Shown in pieces: positions 1 through 37,771 of a DNA stretch of 64,000 bases. A program made the translations under genes and the position numbers. The notes beneath the pieces are model-generated. The model worked only from the letters and a program-made list of their open reading frames with translations, was not told the DNA's origin and searched no databases. This DNA is from an uncultured Candidatus Saccharibacteria bacterium (GTDB lineage: Bacteria > Patescibacteriota > Minisyncoccia > Phycocordibacterales > UBA918). How positions within the stretch are numbered: the first letter of the stretch is position 1; each line of letters starts with the position of its first letter. The DNA lies in contig CAZKFF010000001.1 of assembly GCA_964552045.1 (NCBI GenBank), forward strand, positions 120 to 64,119, read 5' to 3'.

Positions 1-30
1 AGTAGATCAATCCACAGCGACGACTACAAA

Positions 31-219
31 ATGATTATAAAGCGCCTCAAAGAGGCGCGCCTTGAAGTTGGTCTATCCCAGCAAGATGTAGCGGACAAAC
101 TTGATAAACCACAATCTTACGTTTCAAAAATTGAGTCTGGTGAGCGGCGTTTGGATGTTGCTGAAATGAAGGCGTTTGCAAAAATTTACAAAAAGCCGTT
201 GGATTACTTCGTGAATTAG
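31..219 (+). CDS. XRE-family helix-turn-helix transcriptional regulator; candidate controller (C) protein of the adjacent restriction-modification system
   Basis: 62 aa with the Cro/C1-type HTH signature (LSQQDVADKL...SYVSKIESG). Lies 4 nt upstream of a co-oriented ORF and is convergent with a DNA MTase, the classic C-R-M layout. Confidence 0.7.
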   Translation: MIIKRLKEARLEVGLSQQDVADKLDKPQSYVSKIESGERRLDVAEMKAFAKIYKKPLDYFVN

Positions 220-223
220 ACCC

Positions 224-922
224 ATGCCTAAGAATAAGAAAGACACAGTTAAAGAATCGATCTCTCTCATAGAGTCTATTGCAAAAAAGAGACAGAGGCT
301 TTCTGTTGAGGAAGCAAGGGTTTTGATTAGTGAAATTACTAAACTCACAAAAATTCTCTTGGTTTCCAGTGGATTCCCTATAAGAGATGTGACCAGACTT
401 ACCACAAAACTTAGGGACGCTGGACGTAGGTCACCCCCGTGGACACCTTATTCAGGTCGAGTTCCGGGCAGACCTCAAGACGGAGCGGATGGCAATCGGC
501 GCTTGAGATGGCTATTTCCAAAAACCCATAAGTTTTATGCTGACGAAATTACAGCGACATTGGTCGAGGTGAAATATTATCTACAAGTACTGTCTATGAC
601 CAATGCGCCCAAGCTCCCAAAAGGTGCATTCGAGGGGACATTTGATTGGCTTGTGAAGCACAAAATATCACCCGGTGCGTATTTAGACCCAATACAGTTG
701 GTTCCAATTGATCTAAAAGTGATTCTTAATGAGTTAAGAAATCTCCACTCAGGGCATTTGGTGCCGCTAGATCGTAGTGGCAAGCATGAGCCAGCGAATA
801 CTTTTCTTGTCTATGCACGAAGTAACCAGCTTCAAGGAAATTTGACGCTAAATGAACTACTCGACTTAATGAAGCGAATCCTAGACAAACACCACAGCGA
901 GCTGCATGACGAGATTATATAG
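224..922 (+). CDS. hypothetical protein; putative type II restriction endonuclease, inferred from context
   Basis: 232-aa intact ORF directly downstream of the C-like HTH gene. Its stop overlaps the stop of the convergent MTase gene. No nuclease motif recognised by eye, so the assignment rests only on the C-R-M arrangement. Confidence 0.35.
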   Translation: MPKNKKDTVKESISLIESIAKKRQRLSVEEARVLISEITKLTKILLVSSGFPIRDVTRLTTKLRDAGRRSPPWTPYSGRVPGRPQDGADGNRRLRWLFPKTHKFYADEITATLVEVKYYLQVLSMTNAPKLPKGAFEGTFDWLVKHKISPGAYLDPIQLVPIDLKVILNELRNLHSGHLVPLDRSGKHEPANTFLVYARSNQLQGNLTLNELLDLMKRILDKHHSELHDEII

Positions 923-2909
923 CTAACACTTCCTCTAGTTCATTTATTCCAGAAGTGAGGTCGTCTATCGCTTTTTGCCGCGCACTCTCCCCGTCCCTTA
1001 TCCTTTTTACAACCTTTTCGTAAACTTTTTTGTCTTTTGGAACTGGAATTTTTAGATTACCAATGTACTCAGGCGTAATCTCATCAATTACAGAACCATA
1101 AACACCACGCGCTATTGTCTCTTGTGCATATCTCGTTTTAAGGAAAGCAAATAAATACTCCGATGCCATTTTTTCTTGGTCGGGAATAACTCTAATTACA
1201 TGTTCTGAAAATGCATAACCGTCCCATGCTTGAGGTACCGTCGAAACAATTCCGACAGAACCGCTTCTGGTAATAAGGATCCAGCCTTTTTTCACTTTCA
1301 ACTCTTCTATCTTTTTATTTTCCAGACTCATCCACTTATCAGCCCGTAATAGGAGTTGAGTGACGTTAGTTCCACCTAAGAAAGGGACGGCTTCTTGACT
1401 TGGCTCAACGTAGTTTCTTGCAAAACGCCCGGGAAAAAAAATATTTTTAACAACATTATTTAGCTCAACGTACTCCCACTGTTTGTTGTGAGTTTTGCTA
1501 GTAGGTTTGACTGCTTTATGTGATTTGTAATAGCGGGCGTCGAATCTCAAAAGAGGGTCTTCACTAATTTGTTTAGGTGTGACCTTGAAGCTAATTTCTG
1601 AACTAAATTTCTTTTTCTTTTTAAAGTTCGAGTAGTCAGCCTCAACAACATGAAAATCACTTAAAATTTGATCTGTAACAGAACCGTCACGCTCTCTAAC
1701 GTATGTAGGATTTCCTCGTCTATCGTGTCCAATCCACTTAGGAGTGGACATGAAGATTTCGGGATCCGAATCTAAATCTATTTGCTCTAAAGGTTTTTTC
1801 CTTCTTTTCAAAACCAGTAGCGACGCTTTAGTCCCAGTGTGAGGCTGAAAAGTTTCTGGCGGCAGATCAACAACAGCTAAAATCTGCGCGTGTCTCAGAA
1901 TCCATTGGCGGACAAAAAGAGTTTGTGGACCAGAAACAATCTGATAAGGAACAACTATTGCCAACCTACCGGCATCAGGTTTAAGAAGTCTTATATTTCT
2001 CTCAATAAACAAAATATCAGGAGCACGCTGTACAACGGCAGACTCGTCACCAAATAAACCAGTCCTCGTATATTTTTTTGCTAAGTCAAATTGAGAAAGG
2101 AGTTCCGGATCTTTGATCGTAATCTTTGTACCAAAAGGAGGGTTGGTTGCGAGGCAGGAATAACTGCTTTCGTTAAGTCTACTTGAGGGATCAATTTTGA
2201 GAGAATCGCCATTAGCAACAAAATCTACATCTTGAGCACCTAGCTGAAACGACATTGTTGAATTTGCTATTTCCGAAAGCTCTTTATCGAGCTCCTGTCC
2301 AGCAATTGACTCTTTTGCAAGTTTTCTTGCTTTTTCTTCATCACCGTCAGCCAGTTTTTTTATGTGTTTGAGTGCTGCCATCAAAAACCCCCCTGTGCCT
2401 GCACAAATATCAGCAAAGTTGTCTCCTTTTAGAGGATTGAAATCAAGTAGCTTTATAGATAATTGGGTGACTCTTTGGTCGGTAAAAAATTGACCTCCAT
2501 TTGATTTCGTCCAGTGTGATCTAAAGATTTCCATTGAGTCGCCAAATACATCTCGTTCGGAAGTGAGGATATCAATGTCAAAGATTTTTTCGTAAACATG
2601 CGCAATGTTTAAGTCAGTGAGATTTATCTCATTTCCATCCTCGTAAAATCTGGACTGCTTATTAGCTGCCCCAAAATTCTTTCTAACAAAGCTTGCTACA
2701 TTCTTCACATCAATAGCCTGACCATTTAATCTATGTCCCCTTGAGGAGAGTGGGGGTTTGTTGATTTTATTCTTCTCGGCATAAGCCAGAGCCCTATATA
2801 TTTTTCCAACCTCCTTAGCAATAGCTGTAGGAACCTTCACCGGAGAATTGGCGTATAGGTAGTCATAAATGGAGTTCACTCGTGATTCAAGATGTATGAT
2901 CGTACTCAT
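915..2909 (-). CDS. N6-adenine DNA methyltransferase (gamma class) with fused C-terminal HsdS-like target recognition domain
   Basis: Motif I DICAGTGGFLMAA and motif IV TNPPFG are present. The C-terminal about 180 aa (GWILITRSGSVGIVSTV...NLKIPVPKD) match the type I specificity-subunit TRD pattern. Start moved to MSTIIHLE (Met-15 of the track ORF), 7 nt after a TATAAT box. Confidence 0.8.
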   Translation of the reverse strand: MSTIIHLESRVNSIYDYLYANSPVKVPTAIAKEVGKIYRALAYAEKNKINKPPLSSRGHRLNGQAIDVKNVASFVRKNFGAANKQSRFYEDGNEINLTDLNIAHVYEKIFDIDILTSERDVFGDSMEIFRSHWTKSNGGQFFTDQRVTQLSIKLLDFNPLKGDNFADICAGTGGFLMAALKHIKKLADGDEEKARKLAKESIAGQELDKELSEIANSTMSFQLGAQDVDFVANGDSLKIDPSSRLNESSYSCLATNPPFGTKITIKDPELLSQFDLAKKYTRTGLFGDESAVVQRAPDILFIERNIRLLKPDAGRLAIVVPYQIVSGPQTLFVRQWILRHAQILAVVDLPPETFQPHTGTKASLLVLKRRKKPLEQIDLDSDPEIFMSTPKWIGHDRRGNPTYVRERDGSVTDQILSDFHVVEADYSNFKKKKKFSSEISFKVTPKQISEDPLLRFDARYYKSHKAVKPTSKTHNKQWEYVELNNVVKNIFFPGRFARNYVEPSQEAVPFLGGTNVTQLLLRADKWMSLENKKIEELKVKKGWILITRSGSVGIVSTVPQAWDGYAFSEHVIRVIPDQEKMASEYLFAFLKTRYAQETIARGVYGSVIDEITPEYIGNLKIPVPKDKKVYEKVVKRIRDGESARQKAIDDLTSGINELEEVLAI

Positions 2910-2920
2910 ACATAAATTAT

Positions 2921-2958
2921 ATGCAAAATTTGCACAATGCAAAATTTGCATTGTGCAT
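2921..2958 (-). promoter_or_regulatory. tandem 14-bp direct repeats (ATGCAAAATTTGCA x2, each near-palindromic) overlapping the -35/spacer of the MTase promoter; candidate operator. TATAAT lies 7 nt upstream of the ATG, suggesting a leaderless mRNA
   Basis: Read directly from the sequence: atgcaaaatttgcaca / atgcaaaatttgcatt, 17 nt apart. On the minus strand it reads tgcaaattttgcaTATAATttatgtATG. Confidence 0.45.
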
Positions 2959-3005
2959 AACTTACTCAGGCAACTTCCTGTAACAAACGGGACATATCCG
3001 GGTCT

Positions 3006-3950
3006 TTACAGAACCTTACCTTTTGACCAGTACTCCTCAAACGCACTGCGAGCATCATCATAATTTTCTGACAAACTCACTTCTGATCGTTGTCCAGCAG
3101 ATATTGCATTCACGTTTGGTACGTTTCTCAGATACCCAACACCATCGAGAATCCATCGATCATGTGTGTCTCGTATCAATTTACTGTCTATAGTTGCCCA
3201 GGTTGTTTTGATACCTTTGTTTTCCATCTCCTGTTTGAACCGTTTGAAGTACCTTCGTACGTCGCTTCCCAAATTTACGTCTCCCATGTCCAAAGATAGA
3301 ATGCGTATTTCTTTTATTTTCTCTGCATCAGCAACACTCCATAACCATTCCAGCGCCTCTTTCTGGAAATGTTTATCGAGCCATGAAATGGATCCCTCAC
3401 ATTCTCCAAGTACTCGCTTTATCCAGAGGATGTTAGAGAATGGTCGCGATGGGTCAATAAAGATATTTTTTGGCGTATGAGGAGTATCGGGTGAGATAAG
3501 TACTTTCACAGCCCTAGTTTTCTTGTTGTAGGTGATAACACCTGCGTAATTCAAGAAGTCTAGGAAATGCGTCAATGGCTCGTTGGAATCATAGAACCAA
3601 AAGCCCGTAGCCTTTAGGACCGTAAGTACTTGATCAACAGTTACGTCCGATACTCCCCACAAATATTGCTGTAATGCAATCGTGGGAGGAAAGGATAGAA
3701 GCAAGTGCCTTAACATCTCGGTTTCCTCTCCATCACGGCGGATGTACAGCGACTCAAATATCGCTCGTCCGGCCTCAGAAAGCTCACCTGTAGCACCGAC
3801 ATCAAAAACTCCAAGCTCTTCCCAGAAAGTATAGTCGTCTCCCAGTTCATACCGATCTACTGAACCGTTCTCACCAGCCGCCTGTATATAAGGCAGCATT
3901 TTCTTCCAGTTATTCTGTGGCAGAAGTGTTGTCGTTTCCGTGTTTATCAT
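3006..3950 (-). CDS. hypothetical protein (island protein B), second gene of a two-gene operon of unknown function
   Basis: 314-aa ORF with AT-rich island composition. It overlaps the upstream ORF by 41 nt. An alternative start at Met-18 (3899) would leave a 10-nt gap. The C-terminal segment THDRWILDGVGYLRNVPNVN loosely resembles a PLD-type HxK..D..N signature but is not canonical. Confidence 0.55.
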   Translation of the reverse strand: MINTETTTLLPQNNWKKMLPYIQAAGENGSVDRYELGDDYTFWEELGVFDVGATGELSEAGRAIFESLYIRRDGEETEMLRHLLLSFPPTIALQQYLWGVSDVTVDQVLTVLKATGFWFYDSNEPLTHFLDFLNYAGVITYNKKTRAVKVLISPDTPHTPKNIFIDPSRPFSNILWIKRVLGECEGSISWLDKHFQKEALEWLWSVADAEKIKEIRILSLDMGDVNLGSDVRRYFKRFKQEMENKGIKTTWATIDSKLIRDTHDRWILDGVGYLRNVPNVNAISAGQRSEVSLSENYDDARSAFEEYWSKGKVL

Positions 3951-4707
3951 TTTCCTTTGGCTTTGCGTCTGTTACTGCTTTGTCCAGTGCTGCGATCTCA
4001 CTTCCAAACTTTCCGATGGCAAATAAGTACGCGATTTCTGTAGGGTAAGAAATTACAATACCGCTCGGTAACTCGACTTCCTGCATCCCCGTTTTAACTT
4101 GACGTTCTGACTTCTCTGCTCCAAACCGCTGTGATTGCGAGTGTTCACTATTGTCGGTTTCTTCGTCTGTCGTATCTGCCGTGTCTTTAGAGATGGCCTC
4201 ACTAACAATGCCGTTAGAGTACAAGCCTGCAAATTCAAGAGAATCCTTGAATGTTTGCACTACAGTATCGGCAACCTTGCGGCCTATTCCGAATTGTCTG
4301 ACAAGAATGTTGTTAAGAGTAGGAGGAACTGCACGTCCCGAATATTCACTGATGAGAGACTCAAACAACTTCGGATGCTTCGCCGCCTCTAATATTGCAG
4401 CATTTTTCTCCTCCTCTGTTGTATAATGAAGTATCTGCTCAGCAAGATCAGAGTTCTTATATGCGTTACCTTTGCGCTCTAAGAGTCCGTAATGTACCAG
4501 AGCTGCAACTTTAGGGGCTGAAGCACCGCTAAGCGTTGCGTAACCCATAGAAACAGCTGCAGAAGCCCGGTCAAACTGAGATTTAGGATAAGCAGCGATA
4601 AGTTTCTTACTGTACTCAACAGCTTCACCAAGAGGGATGGCGGGGTACGCTGTGCTCCGTTCTCTCTTTGTAGTCTTCTTCGCCTCTGTATTTTGATTGT
4701 CAGTCAT
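3910..4707 (-). CDS. hypothetical protein (island protein A), first gene of the two-gene operon
   Basis: 265 aa from MTDNQNTEAKK; the track ORF extends 7 codons further. Acidic C-terminal tail and no recognisable motif. Co-oriented with and overlapping the downstream ORF. Confidence 0.55.
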   Translation of the reverse strand: MTDNQNTEAKKTTKRERSTAYPAIPLGEAVEYSKKLIAAYPKSQFDRASAAVSMGYATLSGASAPKVAALVHYGLLERKGNAYKNSDLAEQILHYTTEEEKNAAILEAAKHPKLFESLISEYSGRAVPPTLNNILVRQFGIGRKVADTVVQTFKDSLEFAGLYSNGIVSEAISKDTADTTDEETDNSEHSQSQRFGAEKSERQVKTGMQEVELPSGIVISYPTEIAYLFAIGKFGSEIAALDKAVTDAKPKENDKHGNDNTSATE

Positions 4708-4914
4708 AATAATTTTATTTAATCCCATTCCAGTTGGGAGTTTTGTAATACTTAAAATATACTCTCTGTACTATATGCTTGTCAAGCGCAATCTTTACTT
4801 TGTGAAAAATGCCAGAATAACCCAGTAAAGTAGCCATTTTTATATCTATAAGAAACGAGTTACAAAGCGACATGCACCATATTTTTTGTAGTACAGAAAA
4901 GTCTTTGGGTACTT

Positions 4915-5775
4915 TGTAACATGGGGAGCAACCCCGCCCGCCAGGGCGGGGTTTGTGCGCGCACGGGTGGGAGCCGTGAACACGGCATGGGGCAAGCACA
5001 TAAGGCAGCGCCGTCGGGCTATTTCCGCTAGGAGCGTCCAGGGCTAAAGGACGAGCGCCGACGTTAATTTGCAATACAGAAATCTAGCAGCGGAAGCGAC
5101 ACCACAAACGCGCTATTGAAAACGAGGATGGGGGTTGTGCGAGGGCGGACTCCGAAGGCACGTTAAACGAAGCCGCAAAGCGCAAGTAAAGTACAAACGC
5201 AATGAAGCACTGAAGACGCTAATGAATCACTGCGAGGAGGAGCCCGACGCTGGGGGAAGGATTCCTTCCTTCCCCCAATCTAGTGTCCTGCCTTTTCCAC
5301 CGCCCCGCAGGGCGGAATGGAAAAGAAAAGCAGGACCCATAGGCACCTAGGCGCTCGTAGCCCTAGCGGAAATAGCCCGAGGCGGATGCCGAGGGTGCCT
5401 CCCTTTAGCCTCTGGACTACCATAGAAATCTAGGAAATGGCACGAGGCACCGAATTGGAAGCGCCTTCCTTCTTCCACGTTTAGTGGAAGAACGCCCGGA
5501 AGAAAAAATCCTTTTCCATATCCAAAAAAATATCCCCCGCCAAAAAAGAAAAAGGAATACTGCAAAGGATTTTTCTGGAGGGCGTACCGCCGGAACGGAG
5601 TGGAGGCGGAAGGAGGCGCGTATCGAGTTACCACGCAAGCGGAGCGTACGATTCGGTCTCAAGCCACCACGCGCTCCGCGCGGGCGGATCACTTCTCGCT
5701 ACGCTCGAAAAAAGTTCGGATTTCATCATATAGACGGAGCTGAGGAATTTAGGAACCCCGCGCACGCGGGGTTTT
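4915..5775. ncRNA. candidate structured non-coding RNA region of unassigned class (GC-rich, ORF-poor, multiple stable hairpins)
   Basis: No credible ORF, only overlapping Arg-rich junk ORFs on both strands. Hairpins at 4926-4956 (10 bp), 5273-5297 (10 bp), 5306-5322 and 5468-5486. An intrinsic terminator on the + strand at about 5748-5775 closes the region. Weak, inconclusive similarity to the RNase P P4 region (AGAACGCCCGGAAGA). Confidence 0.25.
5748..5775 (+). terminator. rho-independent terminator (aaccccgcgcacgcggggttttt)
   Basis: 8-bp GC-rich stem with a 4-nt loop, followed by a run of 5 T. Confidence 0.6.
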
Positions 5776-5832
5776 TAAATTTCTGAAGCTCCGGCGGAGA
5801 AAGCAACCGAGTTGCTTTCGTCAGGATTCGAA

Positions 5833-5878
5833 AGGAATTTGCATATTTCCGCTATTCCTAATGCGGAAATGCAAATTC
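5833..5878. repeat. long imperfect inverted repeat (17-19 bp arms, 10-nt spacer): ggaatttgcatatttccgc-tattcctaat-gcggaaatgcaaattcc
   Basis: Read directly from the sequence. The right arm is the reverse complement of the left arm apart from a 2-nt bulge. Confidence 0.7.
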
Positions 5879-5951
5879 CCGGGCAGGTAAATCTTATGAA
5901 TGTAACGAATTAGATTTGGACGCCGAATCCTGCCGCCGGAGCCAAACAGGG

Positions 5952-5986
5952 CGAGACTTCCGATTTCGGGAGTCTTTTTCTTTATT
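5952..5986 (+). terminator. rho-independent terminator-like hairpin (agacttccg-attt-cgggagtct) followed by ttttctttattt
   Basis: 9-bp stem containing one G-U pair, then a T-rich tract. Lies about 140 nt upstream of the 6123 gene. Confidence 0.4.
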
Positions 5987-6122
5987 TGAACCGTCATTGA
6001 AGAATTCGAAAATCTGAATGGATGATTTTATTGACTGGATCCTGTAAGTTTCGAAATTCATGCCGCCCGTCCAATTCACACTGATCCAGTAAAAAGACGG
6101 TTTTGTGTGCTATTTTTAAGCC

Positions 6123-35161: not shown

Positions 35162-36373
35162 CTATGTAAGCAATTCTACCAAACGCCGGTACAAAGAGAT
35201 AACCTTTGACGCAGCATGTTCCCACGAAAGCTTCTTGATCTCGTGTTTTCCTTCGCGCACCAGCTGATCCTTCATGACCGGATACCGGAGCGAGGCAAGT
35301 ATCTTGTTTGCCATTTCCTCGACGTCCCAGAAATCGACCTTGAGCACATGGGATACGACCTCAGAGACTCCTGACTGTTTGGAGATAAGCGACGGCGCGC
35401 CGTGCTGGATCGCTTCAAGCGGCACAAGTCCGAACGGTTCGGATACCGACGGCATGACTACGAGATCGACGCTCTGATACATCCGGTCGCGCTCCTCGTA
35501 CCACAACGCTCCAGCGAAGATGACGTTGTCTGACAGCCCCAAAGCGCCCACCTTATGCATGATCTGCGCGGTCATGTCTCCCTTGCCTGAAATGACGAAC
35601 ACCACATTTGGGTCGGCATCCACAACCTTGCGAGCCGCCTCAACGAAATAGTCCACTCCCTTCTGGATAGTGATGCGCCCATGGTAGAGCACGATCTTCT
35701 TGCCCTGCGCTTTCAGTTCCTGCAGTGCCGGTTCGTGGCGGAGCGGCTCATTGACATCGCAGCCATTGTGCACGACCTCTACCTTCTGCGGATCGGCATC
35801 GTGCTTCTCAATGATGATATTCCTGGTGAAGTTGCTCACCGTCACAATGCAGTCAGCAAGGGCAAACGCCTCTTTTTCGATCTTGAAAACCTCAGGATCG
35901 ATATTGTCGCTTGCTGCCTGGTCGAATGCGGTTGCATGGACGTGGAGCACGAGCGGTTTGCCGGTTGCTTTCTTCGCCGCGACTCCCGCAAGATACGCCG
36001 TCCAATCGTGCGCATGGATGATGTCGAACTCCTCTTCGAGCGCTATCTGCGCCGCCTTGTGCGCGAATGCGTGGACCTCCTCAAGGATCGTCCGTGAATA
36101 CAACCTCCGCTTGCCATATTCGTCGTAGACATCGATAAGCGTCTGCGATCCCGCATACGGCACCAAACCGGAAGGAACTTCCCGATACTTGATCATCTTT
36201 TCTACATCAGCGAAGATGAATCTGCCATCGCCATGCACCGGCTGCGAACGCGGCAATACGAAAATGACCTCGATGCCTCCGCGGGCGAGCTCACGAGAAA
36301 GACCCTGGCAGGCTATGCCAAGTCCTCCGGTGGTATGAGGCGGGTAATCCCAGCCAAAAGTAAGGACTTTCAT
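35162..36373 (-). CDS. GT-B glycosyltransferase (group 1, glycogen/alpha-glucan synthase-like)
   Basis: N-terminal GWDYPPHTTGGLGIACQGLSRELARGGIEV and LVLHVHAT. Lies upstream of and adjacent to the GH57 gene. Confidence 0.7.
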   Translation of the reverse strand: MKVLTFGWDYPPHTTGGLGIACQGLSRELARGGIEVIFVLPRSQPVHGDGRFIFADVEKMIKYREVPSGLVPYAGSQTLIDVYDEYGKRRLYSRTILEEVHAFAHKAAQIALEEEFDIIHAHDWTAYLAGVAAKKATGKPLVLHVHATAFDQAASDNIDPEVFKIEKEAFALADCIVTVSNFTRNIIIEKHDADPQKVEVVHNGCDVNEPLRHEPALQELKAQGKKIVLYHGRITIQKGVDYFVEAARKVVDADPNVVFVISGKGDMTAQIMHKVGALGLSDNVIFAGALWYEERDRMYQSVDLVVMPSVSEPFGLVPLEAIQHGAPSLISKQSGVSEVVSHVLKVDFWDVEEMANKILASLRYPVMKDQLVREGKHEIKKLSWEHAASKVISLYRRLVELLT

Positions 36374-36489
36374 GTACGGAAGAAGTACACTGCGGGTGGT
36401 ATGAAATGTACAGAAAGCGCGAGGGAATACTGCAGTGTTACCTCATATTATCACGTTACACTGAGCGGTTTATTGAGTTATATACTGTA

Positions 36490-36518
36490 TTGACGTCGTA
36501 CAATCTCTCTGCTACTAT
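36490..36518 (+). promoter_or_regulatory. sigma70-like promoter (TTGACG-17 nt-TACTAT) about 10 nt upstream of the bL33 start codon
   Basis: Read directly from the sequence: ttgacgtcgtacaatctctctgcTACTATtgccccactATG. Confidence 0.4.
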
Positions 36519-36527
36519 TGCCCCACT

Positions 36528-36707
36528 ATGTCACAAGAACGACTCATACGAATGGTTACCAAGGGCGACGAGAACGGCGTCGGCAAAAACCATGTCTACT
36601 ACACAACCTACAACAACAAGGTCAAGAAAGACCCGAGCAAGAAGTACGAGGCTAAGAAGTACAATCCGGTCGCAAAGAAGCATACCGTGTACACGCAGAA
36701 GAAATAA
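36528..36707 (+). CDS. rpmG: 50S ribosomal protein bL33, non-zinc (C-) form; absent from the ORF track because it is only 59 aa
   Basis: MSQERLIRMVTKGDENGVGKNHVYYTTYNNKVKKDPSKKYEAKKYNPVAKKHTVYTQKK aligns with E. coli L33 ([46 protein letters not shown]). A terminator follows. Confidence 0.7.
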   Translation: MSQERLIRMVTKGDENGVGKNHVYYTTYNNKVKKDPSKKYEAKKYNPVAKKHTVYTQKK

Positions 36708-36708
36708 A

Positions 36709-36745
36709 GAAAAAGATCGCCTACAGGCGATCTTTTTCTTTATTC
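36709..36745. terminator. bidirectional terminator hairpin (aagatcgcc-tacag-ggcgatctt, then T-run)
   Basis: 9-bp stem. Serves both the + strand gene ending at 36707 and the convergent gene ending at 36740. Confidence 0.6.
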
Positions 36746-37771
36746 GTGTTCCATTGCCGATTCGTACGCTCCGGTATCCGCAAGGCTATTGAGGCGCAGT
36801 CGCTTCAGTAGTGCCTCCTGCGCTGCAGGAATGTTCTCTTCCTTGCCCTGCCAGGTCTTCAAAACCGGCTCCTCAATGCCGCGTGAATACGAGAATGCAA
36901 ACTCCCATGGCAGATCATCTCGCTTGTTCTCCTGTTCTGCGATCGCGTCGAGGTTCGCTGTCGCACGTTCGGGAGTCTGGCCACCGGAGAGGAATACAAT
37001 GCCGCCGACATTCTCCGGCACAGCGTTCTTGAAGGTGCGCAACGTGGCTTCGGCCACTTCCGCAGGAGCAGTCTGGTCCGGATGTTCGCTTCCGGCGAGG
37101 ACCATGCTGCTTTTGAGGATAAGGCCCCTGCAATCGACTTTTTGTTCATCGAGGGCGTCGAACACGATCTGGAGTGTCTGTGTAGTGACCGCCTCGGCTC
37201 TGCGCAGATCGTGGCTTCCTGCATGCAGCACCTCAGGTTCGACCATGGGAACGATACCCGCTTCCTGACAGAGCGCGGCATACCGTGCGAGTGAAAACGC
37301 ATCAGCCCGGATATTCTCGATGGTGGGGGTCGATGCGCCGATAGTAATGACCGCCCTCCATTTAGCTGCGCGCGCACCCATATTGTAGTAATCAGCCAGG
37401 CGTTTGCTCAGATCATCGAGCCCTTGGGTCACCACTTCCCCGGGAAAATTGGTGTGCGGTACAGTGCCCTTATCCACCTTGATGATGGGGATGATGCCCT
37501 TCGCGATCAAAAGGTCGGCGAACACCACTCCGTCATCAGTATGATTGCGGATGGTGCCGTCATGCATGATGACACCGGTGACATACTGCTCAATGCCCAT
37601 AGTGGTGAACAGAAGCTGGCGGTACTTCCGCCGCATCTCCGCTTCTTCCGGAACGCCCACAGCCTTCAGCTGCCTGTTCATTGATGTGGGACTCTGGTCC
37701 GCTGCCAAGATACCCTTTCCTTTTGATACGAGAGCCTGCGCAGTATCGTACAGTTTTTGATGATCAGCCAT
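36740..37771 (-). CDS. fba: fructose-bisphosphate aldolase, class I
   Basis: KGKGILAADQSPTS and overall class I FBA collinearity. Start taken at MADHQKLYDTAQ. Confidence 0.8.
   Translation of the reverse strand: MADHQKLYDTAQALVSKGKGILAADQSPTSMNRQLKAVGVPEEAEMRRKYRQLLFTTMGIEQYVTGVIMHDGTIRNHTDDGVVFADLLIAKGIIPIIKVDKGTVPHTNFPGEVVTQGLDDLSKRLADYYNMGARAAKWRAVITIGASTPTIENIRADAFSLARYAALCQEAGIVPMVEPEVLHAGSHDLRRAEAVTTQTLQIVFDALDEQKVDCRGLILKSSMVLAGSEHPDQTAPAEVAEATLRTFKNAVPENVGGIVFLSGGQTPERATANLDAIAEQENKRDDLPWEFAFSYSRGIEEPVLKTWQGKEENIPAAQEALLKRLRLNSLADTGAYESAMEHE

What the first reader, a model, noticed from the sequence alone, without database searches (positions are those of the whole stretch)
1..4750. 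Compositionally distinct (AT-richer) island carrying a C-R-M restriction-modification system
By eye the first 4.7 kb is well below the GC content of the rest of the window. It contains an XRE-type HTH gene, a 232-aa ORF 4 nt downstream of it, and a convergent gamma-class N6-adenine MTase with an HsdS-like TRD. This is the typical controller / endonuclease / methyltransferase arrangement. The left boundary lies outside the window.
Basis: partly seen in the sequence, partly recalled or inferred. Interest (0 to 1): 0.55.

Follow-up and report, generated by a model that had tools for sequence, protein, structure and literature searches.

The report
AT-rich island with controlled restriction-modification system
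The first 4.9 kb of the window is a horizontally acquired, AT-rich mosaic island: an ordinary but previously unannotated restriction-modification system (regulator, DNA-cutting enzyme, protective methylase), followed by an unrelated two-gene cassette of unknown function.

Summary
Window 1-4750 has 42.1% GC against 52.0% for the rest, about 10 SD below same-size windows. All four complete island ORFs have lower GC3 than all 48 other ORFs.

The C-R-M reading is supported.
- **C:** a 73-aa XRE-type HTH protein whose start lies 33 nt left of the window. A conserved tandem palindromic C-box sits just upstream.
- **R:** the 232-aa ORF is an HNH nuclease of the DraIII type II endonuclease superfamily.
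- **M:** a gamma-class N6-adenine methylase fused to a single HsdS-type recognition domain.

R and M sit tail to tail in 42 of 42 informative loci from many phyla, plus one Acinetobacter plasmid. An HTH gene lies upstream of R in about 40% of loci.

Two GCA-N5-TGC sites sit in the M promoter. The motif occurs there in 35 of 44 loci. I infer this is the recognition sequence and that M regulates itself, as in AhdI.

The island is a mosaic. Genes 3006-4728 form a separate, conserved two-gene cassette (a winged-helix protein and a winged-helix plus PLD-fold protein). Close relatives sit beside other R-M systems. Its function is unknown.

Verdict: a new member of a known kind, of moderate interest.

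The parts
1..219 (+). Controller (C) gene: XRE/HTH_3 protein. The in-window ATG is at 31, but the real start is 33 nt left of the window (73 aa). The C-box lies at about window -47 to -17, outside the window.
   Evidence: Pfam HTH_3 5.5e-17. Logan contig L001 92-313 encodes the 73-aa form. C-box ATCCCATTTTGGGAT-T-ATACCATATTAGGAT at L001 47-77 is conserved in L002, L003 and, less well, L010. An HTH_3 gene sits upstream of R in 19 of 29 candidate upstream ORFs, about 45 loci in all.
224..922 (+). Restriction endonuclease gene (232 aa): HNH / beta-beta-alpha-metal nuclease, a remote member of the DraIII superfamily. Predicted catalytic residues are His178, Asn192 and Asn201. It contains no cysteine.
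   Evidence: Model pLDDT 89.6. Foldseek hit to 4L0K (R.DraIII) at E 1.9e-5, probability 1.0. The profile aligns the SGH..N..N.LQGN motif with the Cas9 HNH domain. hhalign against a DraIII-related family gives 99.9%, E 4.6e-32. More than 622 homologs, all labelled 'hypothetical'.
915..2951 (-). Methyltransferase gene: gamma-class N6-adenine MTase fused to one HsdS-type target-recognition domain and a C-terminal helix. The probable real start is Met15 at 2909. It overlaps the R gene tail to tail by 8 nt.
   Evidence: Pfam N6_Mtase plus Methylase_S. Motif positions. Nearest solved relatives are type I HsdM proteins and RM.BsaXI. Convergent partner of R in 42 of 42 informative loci. The TRD is 38-67% identical in the diverged loci (99% in the near-identical L046/L047).
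2916..2957 (-). M promoter and operator. A promoter-like TTTGCA-16-TATAAT lies at 2943-2916. Two GCA-N5-TGC sites (2923-2933 and 2939-2949, 16 bp apart) lie in or beside a 12-bp-stem palindrome at 2931-2957. This is the predicted recognition sequence and autoregulatory site.
   Evidence: The motif occurs within 150 nt upstream of M in 35 of 44 loci, 21 of them with two copies. Its density is 8.6 per kb against 0.23 per kb background, and it ranks first of 640 symmetric 3+N+3 patterns. The spacer varies while the triplets are constant. It is absent upstream of R (3 of 46). AhdI is the precedent.
3006..3950 (-). Cassette gene 2 (314 aa): N-terminal winged-helix region plus C-terminal PLD-fold domain, with invariant H263-D-R265-W. 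Not part of the R-M system.
   Evidence: No family hit in Pfam or PADLOC, none in NCBIfam at E<=0.1, and only a non-significant PHROGs hit (E 0.016). 203 homologs, mostly Patescibacteria. Model pLDDT 93.3. Foldseek hits TrmBL2, MITD1, NucT and Zucchini. No homolog in any of the 44 R-M loci.
3910..4728 (-). Cassette gene 1 (272 aa): probable winged-helix DNA-binding protein. It overlaps gene 2 by 41 nt.
   Evidence: 46 homologs on the same contigs as 314-aa homologs. An upstream partner overlaps or abuts the 314-aa homolog in most of about 60 loci. Weak profile match to a winged-helix region only.
4729..4910 (-). Conserved 5' region and promoter of the cassette, and the right end of the island.
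   Evidence: About 180 nt is 76% identical to the region upstream of the 272-aa homologs in L056-L058. Promoter-like TTGACA-18-TATATT at 4785-4756, 11 of 12 matches. DNA homology to L057 and L056 ends at 4907 and 4918. GC rises from 0.31 to 0.60 here.

Best explanation
Window positions about -50 to 4910 are a horizontally acquired mosaic island made of two independent modules.

**Module 1 (about -50 to 2990)** is a type IIP restriction-modification system built like AhdI.
- A weak leaderless C-R operon is switched on late by the 73-aa HTH controller. The controller binds a strong distal 15-bp palindrome and a weaker proximal one.
- The 232-aa R protein is a DraIII-like HNH nuclease. It presumably acts as a homodimer, with His178 as general base and Asn201 as metal ligand.
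- The convergent M gene encodes a type-I-like methylase with one recognition domain. It presumably dimerises to read a symmetric bipartite site and methylates the adenine in each half.
- Two GCA-N5-TGC sites overlap the M promoter. I infer that GCANNNNNTGC is the recognition sequence. By my own recollection this is the BstAPI/ApaBI specificity. I also infer that binding or methylation of these sites throttles M transcription once the genome is protected.

**Module 2 (3006 to 4910)** is a separate two-gene cassette (272-aa winged-helix protein, 314-aa winged-helix plus PLD-fold protein). It has its own promoter and its own evolutionary history. Its role is unknown. My best guess is a DNA-targeting selfish or defence cassette that tends to sit in variable regions beside R-M systems.

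**Shown:** composition, domain content, fold, homology, gene linkage, and conservation of the motifs.
**Inferred:** enzymatic activity, the recognition sequence, both regulatory loops, and any role for the cassette.
For: **Composition:**

**R is a nuclease of a restriction-enzyme family:**

**M architecture:**

**Strict R-M linkage:** tail-to-tail pairing in 42 of 42 informative loci spanning Patescibacteria, Proteobacteria, Bacteroidota, Cyanobacteria, Chloroflexota and an archaeon, plus an 8.7-kb Acinetobacter plasmid.

**Controller:** HTH_3 gene 4 nt upstream of R. An HTH_3 gene is in the same position in 19 loci, drawn from several lineages. The tandem 15-bp palindromes 16 bp apart are conserved upstream of C.

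**Operator and specificity:**. The TRD is as conserved as the catalytic domain, which fits one shared specificity. AhdI shows the same logic experimentally: convergent MS and CR units, its own site in the MS promoter, and two C-protein sites (PMC2275141).

**Mosaic structure:** window 129-2979 is 92% nt-identical to L046, which lacks the cassette. Window 3017-4907 is 88% identical to L057, which carries a different R-M system. In L046 the module is also AT-rich (0.41 against 0.53-0.55) and flanked by a 30-nt direct repeat.
Against: - No activity data exist, and REBASE could not be searched.
- R itself does not reach Pfam DraIII (no hit at E<=0.1). It also lacks the eight zinc ligands that DraIII needs.
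- The C protein's best matches are generic XRE proteins. Characterised C proteins score only about 1e-3 to 1e-5.
- GCANNNNNTGC is not avoided in the window. There are 49 sites against 28 +/- 5 expected, so genome statistics give no independent support for the predicted specificity.
- Nine of 44 loci, in two divergent clades, lack the promoter motif.
- The closest relative, L046, has a truncated C gene, so R can persist without C.
- The left flank of the island could not be retrieved.
Confidence: 0.8

Rival explanations
1. All five genes form one multi-gene, methylation-associated defence system (MADS-like or type-I-like). In this reading the 272-aa and 314-aa proteins work together with the methylase.
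For: The cassette is on the same strand as M and ends 54 nt upstream of it. M gives partial NCBIfam hits to MAD2 (4.4e-60) and MAD5 (4.7e-50). Close cassette relatives lie directly beside other R-M systems in L048, L051, L056, L057, L059 and L060.
Against: The MAD2 and MAD5 scores are far under their cut-offs (204 against 720 bits, 171 against 400 bits). None of the 44 R-M loci has a cassette homolog, and none of about 70 cassette loci has this R, M or C. The two parts are separate DNA-homology blocks. M has its own promoter and operator, conserved in L046 without the cassette. Most distant cassette loci have housekeeping neighbours. No HsdR-like gene is in the island.
Confidence: 0.06
2. The HTH gene and the 232-aa ORF are a toxin-antitoxin-like pair (XRE antitoxin plus toxin) that happens to lie beside an orphan methylase.
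For: The HTH protein scores best against antitoxin-type and phage-repressor-type XRE models (TIGR03070 at 9.8e-7, RstR at 8.5e-6). The tight two-gene operon resembles a toxin-antitoxin layout.
Against: The 232-aa gene is always paired with the methylase, but with an HTH gene in only about 40% of loci, and those HTH genes come from unrelated lineages. The R fold and profile match a type II restriction enzyme family. The tandem operator layout is that of a C-box.
Confidence: 0.04
3. The system is a decaying or inactive remnant. M acts as a solitary methylase, and R is silent or non-functional.
For: The predicted site is not avoided in the window. The nearest relative has lost the 5' half of its C gene. 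R-M genes often decay after transfer.
Against: All three ORFs are intact. Every family-invariant residue of R is present, since invariance was defined on alignments that include it. The C-box and M operator are intact. The 8-nt R/M overlap is preserved in the closest relative, L046.
Confidence: 0.1

Closest known systems
AhdI restriction-modification system (Aeromonas hydrophila; GACNNNNNGTC), as described in PMC2275141
   Same: Both have two convergent transcription units, C-R and the methylase. The methylase is type-I-like, with an HsdS-type recognition domain reading a symmetric 3+N5+3 site. The system's own site lies in the methylase promoter. The C protein has a strong distal and a weaker proximal binding site.
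   Different: Here M and S are fused in one polypeptide, whereas AhdI has separate M and S subunits. There are two sites 16 bp apart over the -35 region, rather than one site over the -10 element. The predicted target differs (GCA-N5-TGC). Nothing here has been tested experimentally.
R.DraIII (PDB 4L0K, Pfam PF21586; CACNNN^GTG), PMC3996161
   Same: Similar size (232 aa against about 227 aa by my recollection). Both have a two-domain layout with a C-terminal beta-beta-alpha-metal HNH site. The catalytic His and Asn fall at nearly the same positions (H178/N201 here, H183/N202 in DraIII). Both have a gapped palindromic target, predicted in this case. The whole-chain fold match has E 1.9e-5, and the profile-profile link to PF21586 members is 99.9%.
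   Different: Only about 16% identity. There is no direct Pfam hit. There are no cysteines, so the two structural zinc sites of DraIII are absent. A long invariant basic loop (residues 61-96, RDAGRRSPPW...GRPQDGADGNRR) is unique to this family. Residue-level superposition was not checked.
BstAPI / ApaBI (GCANNNNNTGC; specificity from my own knowledge of REBASE, not verified here)
   Same: They have the recognition sequence that I predict from the conserved sites in the M promoter.
   Different: This family may or may not include them.
Characterised controller proteins (C.Esp1396I 3CLC, C.BclI 2B5A, C.AhdI)
   Same: A small HTH_3 protein encoded immediately upstream of R, with a tandem palindromic operator in front of its own gene.
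   Different: Sequence similarity is marginal (E about 6e-4 to 9e-4). The operator half-sites are ATCCCA/TGGGAT rather than the GACT/AGTC type (the latter from memory).

Membership tests
Type II restriction-modification system | A DNA methyltransferase with intact catalytic motifs | tested here: met
   Pfam N6_Mtase 3.1e-26. Motif I DICAGTGGF at residue 181 and motif IV NPPF at residue 270.
Type II restriction-modification system | A separate, adjacent endonuclease gene that is evolutionarily linked to the methylase | tested here: met
   HNH/DraIII-like fold and profile. Convergent pairing in 42 of 42 informative loci and on one plasmid.
Type II restriction-modification system | Both enzymes act on the same defined DNA sequence | not testable with these tools
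   Only an inference from GCA-N5-TGC sites in M promoters. Needs methylome and cleavage assays.
C-protein (controller) regulated R-M | A small HTH protein encoded just upstream of R and co-oriented with it | tested here: met
   73-aa HTH_3 protein whose stop lies 4 nt before the R start.
C-protein (controller) regulated R-M | A C-box, meaning tandem palindromic operators upstream of the C gene | tested here: met
   ATCCCATTTTGGGAT and ATACCATATTAGGAT lie 16 bp apart (start to start) and end 15 nt before the ATG. The same pair is present in L002 and L003 and partly in L010. It lies outside the window, on contig L001.
C-protein (controller) regulated R-M | Significant sequence similarity to characterised C proteins | tested here: inconclusive
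   PADLOC Control_protein 1.5e-5, and PDB C.Esp1396I 6.4e-4 and C.BclI 8.5e-4. However, generic XRE proteins score better (3EUS at 3e-14).
HNH / His-Me finger nucleases | A beta-beta-alpha fold carrying a general-base His and a metal-ligand Asn | tested here: met
   Strands 174-178 and 193-197 followed by a helix. Invariant H178, N192 and N201. These align to the Cas9 HNH motif.
DraIII family (Pfam PF21586) | A match to the family model at the gathering score | tested here: not met
   No Pfam hit at E<=0.1 for the 232-aa protein. It is related only through intermediates: P0326 scores 62 bits and P0332 34 bits against a cut-off of 27, and hhalign of A2 against A8 gives 99.9%.
DraIII family (Pfam PF21586) | Two structural zinc sites made of Cys/His ligands, essential in DraIII | tested here: not met
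   The protein has zero cysteines. The DraIII requirement is described in PMC3996161.
Gamma-class N6-adenine methyltransferase with HsdS-like TRD | Motif order I, then IV (NPPF), then a C-terminal recognition domain matching Methylase_S | tested here: met
   Positions 181, 270 and 469-641. Methylase_S 1.6e-10.
MADS (methylation-associated defence system) | MAD2 and MAD5 equivalog scores, plus the remaining mad genes | tested here: not met
   204 bits against a cut-off of 720, and 171 bits against 400. No other mad-like genes were found among the five island ORFs.
Type I restriction-modification system | An HsdR helicase-nuclease subunit encoded with M and S | tested here: not met
   The five island ORFs are all accounted for, and none is helicase-like.
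Genomic island (horizontally acquired) | Composition and codon usage unlike the host, with the same DNA found in other genomic contexts | tested here: met
   Composition. A 92% nt-identical R-M block and an 88% identical cassette block occur in unrelated contexts.
Genomic island (horizontally acquired) | Mobility genes or defined ends (integrase, tRNA, flanking repeats) | tested here: inconclusive
   No integrase and no tRNA. A 30-nt exact inverted repeat brackets the island (L001 1-30 against window 5501-5530), but the left flank is missing.

The most novel reading that the evidence does not exclude
The 272-aa and 314-aa pair (window 3006-4910) would be a new two-gene DNA-targeting module, made of a winged-helix protein plus a winged-helix protein with a PLD-fold domain bearing an invariant H-D-R-W site. 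It would function as a defence or addiction cassette, or as a vehicle that travels with type II R-M systems in Patescibacteria. Separately, the R family would be the unannotated sequence family behind the BstAPI/ApaBI specificity. That specificity would be readable directly from the conserved self-sites in the methylase promoters.
Probability: 0.25. Interest if true: 0.6.

Novelty: new member of a known kind. Interest (0 to 1): 0.4.

Why it matters
- It gives a function to a widespread protein family. More than 600 members across many bacterial phyla, an archaeon and a plasmid are annotated only as 'hypothetical' and match no Pfam, NCBIfam or PADLOC model.
- It links that family to the DraIII restriction enzymes and predicts its recognition sequence from conserved self-sites in the methylase promoter. 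That trick could be reused for other systems with type-I-like methylases.
- It shows that the AhdI regulatory design recurs in a fused M-S form.
- It flags a conserved two-gene cassette that sits beside several different R-M systems in candidate-phyla-radiation bacteria and has no known function.

Tried and rejected
**Direct family searches**
- Direct family searches of the 232-, 314- and 272-aa proteins found nothing significant. Pfam, NCBIfam and PADLOC returned nothing apart from a far sub-threshold Pfam hit for the 272-aa protein (CARF-assoc_HTH, E 0.01), PHROGs gave only weak hits (endonuclease VII at 0.0036), and only the 232-aa protein was run singly against PDB.
- PDB profile searches for the cassette proteins gave only chance-level hits.

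**Retrieving the source contig**
- I tried to fetch the 134,405-bp source contig to see the left flank. The exact proteins are 'not on record'.
- The genome-collection scan did not contain the source genome.
- Only a 1459-nt Logan contig, L001, extends 94 nt to the left.

**Structure libraries**

**Non-coding region and other collections**
- Rfam and tRNA scans of the non-coding region 4750-6120 found no family.
- The phage collection has no homolog of R.
- A literature search for BstAPI together with HNH returned no papers. The two papers that mention GCANNNNNTGC have nothing on this family.

**Genome statistics**
- Site avoidance cannot support the predicted specificity, because the site is over-represented rather than under-represented.

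**Ideas rejected**
- That the M-promoter palindrome is a C-protein site: the motif occurs in loci without C and differs from the C-box.
- That the cassette is part of the R-M system: see the first rival explanation.
- A possible sequence link between the L046 target duplication and the 3' end of the 314-aa gene. It rests on a match of only 12-18 nt and was left as unexplained.
Full report
**1. The observation**

GC per kb is 0.39-0.45 over window 1-5000 and about 0.52 afterwards. Window 1-4750 has GC 0.421 and the rest 0.520. Among same-size sliding windows elsewhere, the mean is 0.521, the sd 0.0097 and the minimum 0.493. The island is therefore about 10 sd low.

GC3 of the four complete island ORFs is 0.335-0.433. 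All 48 other long ORFs have higher values (0.596 +/- 0.054, minimum 0.438). The island ORFs' codon-usage divergence is about twice the median.

The low-GC tract ends near 4900. The 200-nt windows go from 0.31 at 4701-4900 to 0.60 at 4901-5100.

- HTH at 31-219 (+).
- The 232-aa ORF at 224-922 (+), after a 4-nt gap.
- The convergent 678-aa ORF at 915-2951 (-), overlapping R by 8 nt.

**2. The methylase**

Pfam gives N6_Mtase at 3.1e-26 (residues 132-387) and Methylase_S at 1.6e-10 (residues 490-641). Motif I (DICAGTGGF) is at residue 181, NPPF at 270 and the TRD starts at 469, which is the gamma-class order. The nearest solved relatives are type I HsdM subunits and RM.BsaXI.

NCBIfam reports MAD2 and MAD5 similarity, but at 204 and 171 bits against cut-offs of 720 and 400. 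This is therefore not a MADS system.

The protein is a type-I-like M-S fusion with a single TRD and a C-terminal helix. By analogy with half-size S subunits, it should dimerise and read a symmetric bipartite site. That last step is inference.

**3. The 232-aa protein is a restriction endonuclease of the DraIII superfamily**

It has no direct family hit. It does have more than 622 homologs. The top 120 are 53-92% identical, about 220-230 aa long, all labelled 'hypothetical', and carry no Pfam domain.

Invariant residues include S176-G-H178, P181, H188, N192, S200-N201 and Q204-G205. The family profile aligns this block to the Cas9 HNH motif (vDHViP...N...N..kGN). The E-value is only 0.17, but the alignment is motif for motif.

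An AlphaFold model built on 117 sequences has pLDDT 89.6 and pTM 0.87. It shows strands at 174-178 and 193-197 followed by a helix. Foldseek against the PDB returns four chains of 4L0K as the only hits with E<=1e-3 (1.9e-5, probability 1.0, 187 columns, TM 0.42-0.47). Cas9, Gme and McrA HNH domains follow.

4L0K is R.DraIII, a homodimeric type IIP enzyme that cuts CACNNN^GTG. Its HNH site uses H183 and N202, and it has two essential zinc sites (PMC3996161).

An exhaustive profile search found a second tier of distant relatives. Two of them pass Pfam PF21586 'DraIII' (62 and 34 bits against a cut-off of 27). A profile-profile comparison of the two families gives 99.9% probability and E 4.6e-32 over 178 columns. 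It aligns NR..RW, AP.LP and the whole HNH block.

The protein has no cysteine, so the DraIII zinc sites are absent.

**4. Gene linkage**

A scan of one genome per species found 44 loci. In all 42 that extend far enough, a homolog of the 678-aa methylase lies convergent and immediately downstream of the R homolog. The same pair sits on an 8.7-kb Acinetobacter plasmid, annotated 'hypothetical protein' plus 'N-6 DNA methylase'.

R is more conserved than M in every locus. The TRD is as conserved as the catalytic domain, at 38-67%. This fits a set of isoschizomers.

None of these loci contains a homolog of the 314-aa or 272-aa proteins.

**5. The controller**

The HTH gene really starts 33 nt left of the window and encodes 73 aa (Logan contig L001).

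Just upstream lie two palindromes, ATCCCATTTTGGGAT (perfect) and ATACCATATTAGGAT (imperfect). They are 16 bp apart start to start and end 15 nt before the ATG. The same pair is present in L002 and L003 and partly in L010, in otherwise diverged DNA. This is the layout of a C-box. In AhdI, the strong distal site activates and the weak proximal site represses.

An HTH_3 gene occupies the same position in 19 loci (18 of 45 related loci plus the window's own, L001), and these genes come from several unrelated lineages. Some look like textbook C proteins (LSQEELA...RTYISGIERG.RN).

Sequence similarity of this particular protein to solved C proteins is marginal. The closest R-M relative, L046, retains only the 3' half of the C gene. 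C is therefore dispensable for persistence.

**6. Predicted recognition sequence and M autoregulation**

The M gene has a promoter-like TTTGCA-16-TATAAT at 2943-2916, which would start transcription at about the Met15 ATG (2909). A 12-bp-stem palindrome lies at 2931-2957. The whole stretch is conserved in L046, where M is called from the equivalent of Met15.

Within it are two GCA-N5-TGC sites 16 bp apart, at 2923-2933 and 2939-2949.

Across 44 loci:
- The 150 nt upstream of M contains this motif in 35 loci, 21 of them with two copies, usually 15-17 bp apart.
- The motif density is 8.6 per kb against 0.23 per kb in the rest of the loci.
- It ranks first of all 640 symmetric 3+N(0-9)+3 patterns. 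The runner-up, TGC-N7-GCA, is the same motif extended by one base.
- The outer triplets are constant while the spacer varies freely (AATTT, CTTTC, CGAAT, GAACC and others). The proximal TGC often abuts a TTGAC -35 element.
- The motif is not found upstream of R (3 of 46).

Only R and M are common to all these loci, and the motif has the form expected for a dimer of single-TRD subunits. The simplest reading is that this is the system's own recognition site, used for feedback on M. This is exactly what has been shown for the AhdI MS promoter.

By my own recollection of REBASE, GCANNNNNTGC is the BstAPI/ApaBI specificity. I could not test whether those enzymes belong to this family.

Two caveats apply. 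The site is not avoided in the window (49 sites against 28 +/- 5 expected). Two divergent clades, nine loci in all, lack the promoter motif.

**7. The island is a mosaic**

Window 129-2979 is 92% nt-identical to L046 8300-11149. There the R-M block sits alone between housekeeping genes of a 53-55% GC genome. It is itself 41% GC and is flanked by a 30-nt direct repeat (28 of 30 matches).

Window 3017-4907 is 88% identical to L057 and 81% identical to L056. In those loci the 272-aa and 314-aa pair lies beside quite different R-M systems.

The junction between the two modules is at about 2980-3016.

**8. The cassette**

The 314-aa family has 203 detected members and the 272-aa family 46. Both are mostly from Patescibacteria, and they share contigs. 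The two genes overlap by 41 nt here and overlap or abut in most of about 60 loci. About 180 nt of upstream DNA, with a strong promoter-like site at 4785-4756, is conserved.

The 314-aa model (pLDDT 93.3) has a helical winged-helix N-terminal half and a PLD-fold C-terminal half. Its best matches are TrmBL2, MITD1, NucT, FAM83 and Zucchini. H263-D-R265-W266 is invariant. This resembles the HxK signature, but with Arg in place of Lys, so catalysis is uncertain.

The 272-aa protein has only a weak winged-helix match.

Neighbours of close relatives:
- An EcoRI system (L048).
- GmrSD/HNH plus an EcoRI-type methylase (L051, L057, L059, L060).
- A DpnII C-M-R-M system (L056).
- Nothing related in Mycolicibacterium boenickei (L053).

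Among 142 neighbouring ORFs from 57 loci, the commonest families are EcoRI_methylase (5), GmrSD_N (4), HNH (4) and Phage_integrase (3). Most of the rest are housekeeping genes. The adjacency to R-M systems therefore holds for the close clade only.

Function remains unknown. I rate a defence, addiction or mobility role at about 25%.

**9. Surroundings**

The host is a bacterial chromosome carrying rpoB (1070 aa), rpoC and dnaG. The short rpoB and the relatives' taxonomy suggest a candidate-phyla-radiation bacterium, but this is a guess.

Right of the island lies an approximately 850-nt GC-rich non-coding element (4927-5775). It is bounded by two similar hairpins and contains nested long inverted repeats. 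Its predicted folding is extreme on both strands (z -8.3 and -12.5). It has no Rfam family.

The first 30 nt of L001, about 65-94 nt left of the window, are an exact inverted copy of window 5501-5530. The island is thus bracketed by an inverted repeat of unknown full length. I could not obtain the left flank.

**10. Verdict**

The system is an AhdI-style, C-controlled type IIP R-M system. Its nuclease is a zinc-less remote DraIII relative, and its methylase is a fused M-S protein. It is a new member of a known kind.

Three things go beyond the routine:
- A function for a large 'hypothetical' protein family.
- A recognition sequence predicted from promoter self-sites.
- An unexplained companion cassette.

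Confidence:
- R-M with controller: about 0.85-0.9.
- The GCANNNNNTGC specificity: about 0.6-0.65.
- The two-module mosaic: about 0.85.

Noticed in passing
window 4927-5775: An approximately 850-nt GC-rich non-coding element lies just right of the island. It is bounded by two similar hairpins (ACCCCGC..GCGGGGT at 4931-4952 and 5755-5772, the only two in the window). It contains nested long inverted repeats, for example 4991-5032 against 5362-5403. Predicted folding is far stronger than for shuffled sequence on both strands (z -8.3 and -12.5). There is no Rfam, tRNA or tmRNA match. It could be a novel structured RNA or a MITE-like element.
   Followed up: partly
L001 1-30 (about 65-94 nt left of window position 1) and window 5501-5530: An exact 30-nt inverted repeat brackets the island together with the first 600 nt of the GC-rich element. 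The Logan contig ends inside the repeat, so its full length and meaning are unknown. It could mark a composite element, an inversion, or a repeat family.
   Followed up: partly
L046 8256-8285 and 11154-11183: In the closest relative, the 2.85-kb R-M block is flanked by a 30-nt direct repeat (28 of 30 matches). The left copy is the 3' end of the upstream NTPase gene. This looks like insertion with a long target duplication. The C gene there has lost its 5' half and its C-box.
   Followed up: partly
window 224-2951 and loci L002-L045: The endonuclease is more conserved than its methylase in every locus, for example 52% against 31% in L036. This is the reverse of the usual pattern. The methylase TRD is as conserved as its catalytic domain.
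   Followed up: partly
window 1-64000: GCANNNNNTGC occurs 49 times against 28 +/- 5 expected from dinucleotide shuffles. The predicted target is therefore over-represented, not avoided. This may reflect codon or GCA/TGC-rich repeats such as GCAGCAGCTGC, or recent acquisition of the island.
   Followed up: no
window 3026-3052 and L046 11143-11172: The 3' end of the 314-aa gene (CTCCTCAAACGCACTGCGAGCATC) resembles the right-hand junction and target duplication in L046 (CTTCCTTAAACGCACTGCGCTCATC). This could be chance, or microhomology used when the R-M block moved.
   Followed up: partly
window 35700-36792: Two short ORFs (142 and 128 aa) have the most deviant codon usage outside the island, and one has the lowest GC3 there (0.438). 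They may be a second small foreign insert or spurious ORFs.
   Followed up: no
loci L036, L038, L039, L045 and L024, L025, L029, L040, L042: Two divergent clades of the R-M family (Anaerolineae-like and cyanobacterial) lack the GCA-N5-TGC sites upstream of M. The Anaerolineae group carries canonical C proteins. In the cyanobacterial group, M seems to be preceded by coding sequence. Their regulation may differ.
   Followed up: no
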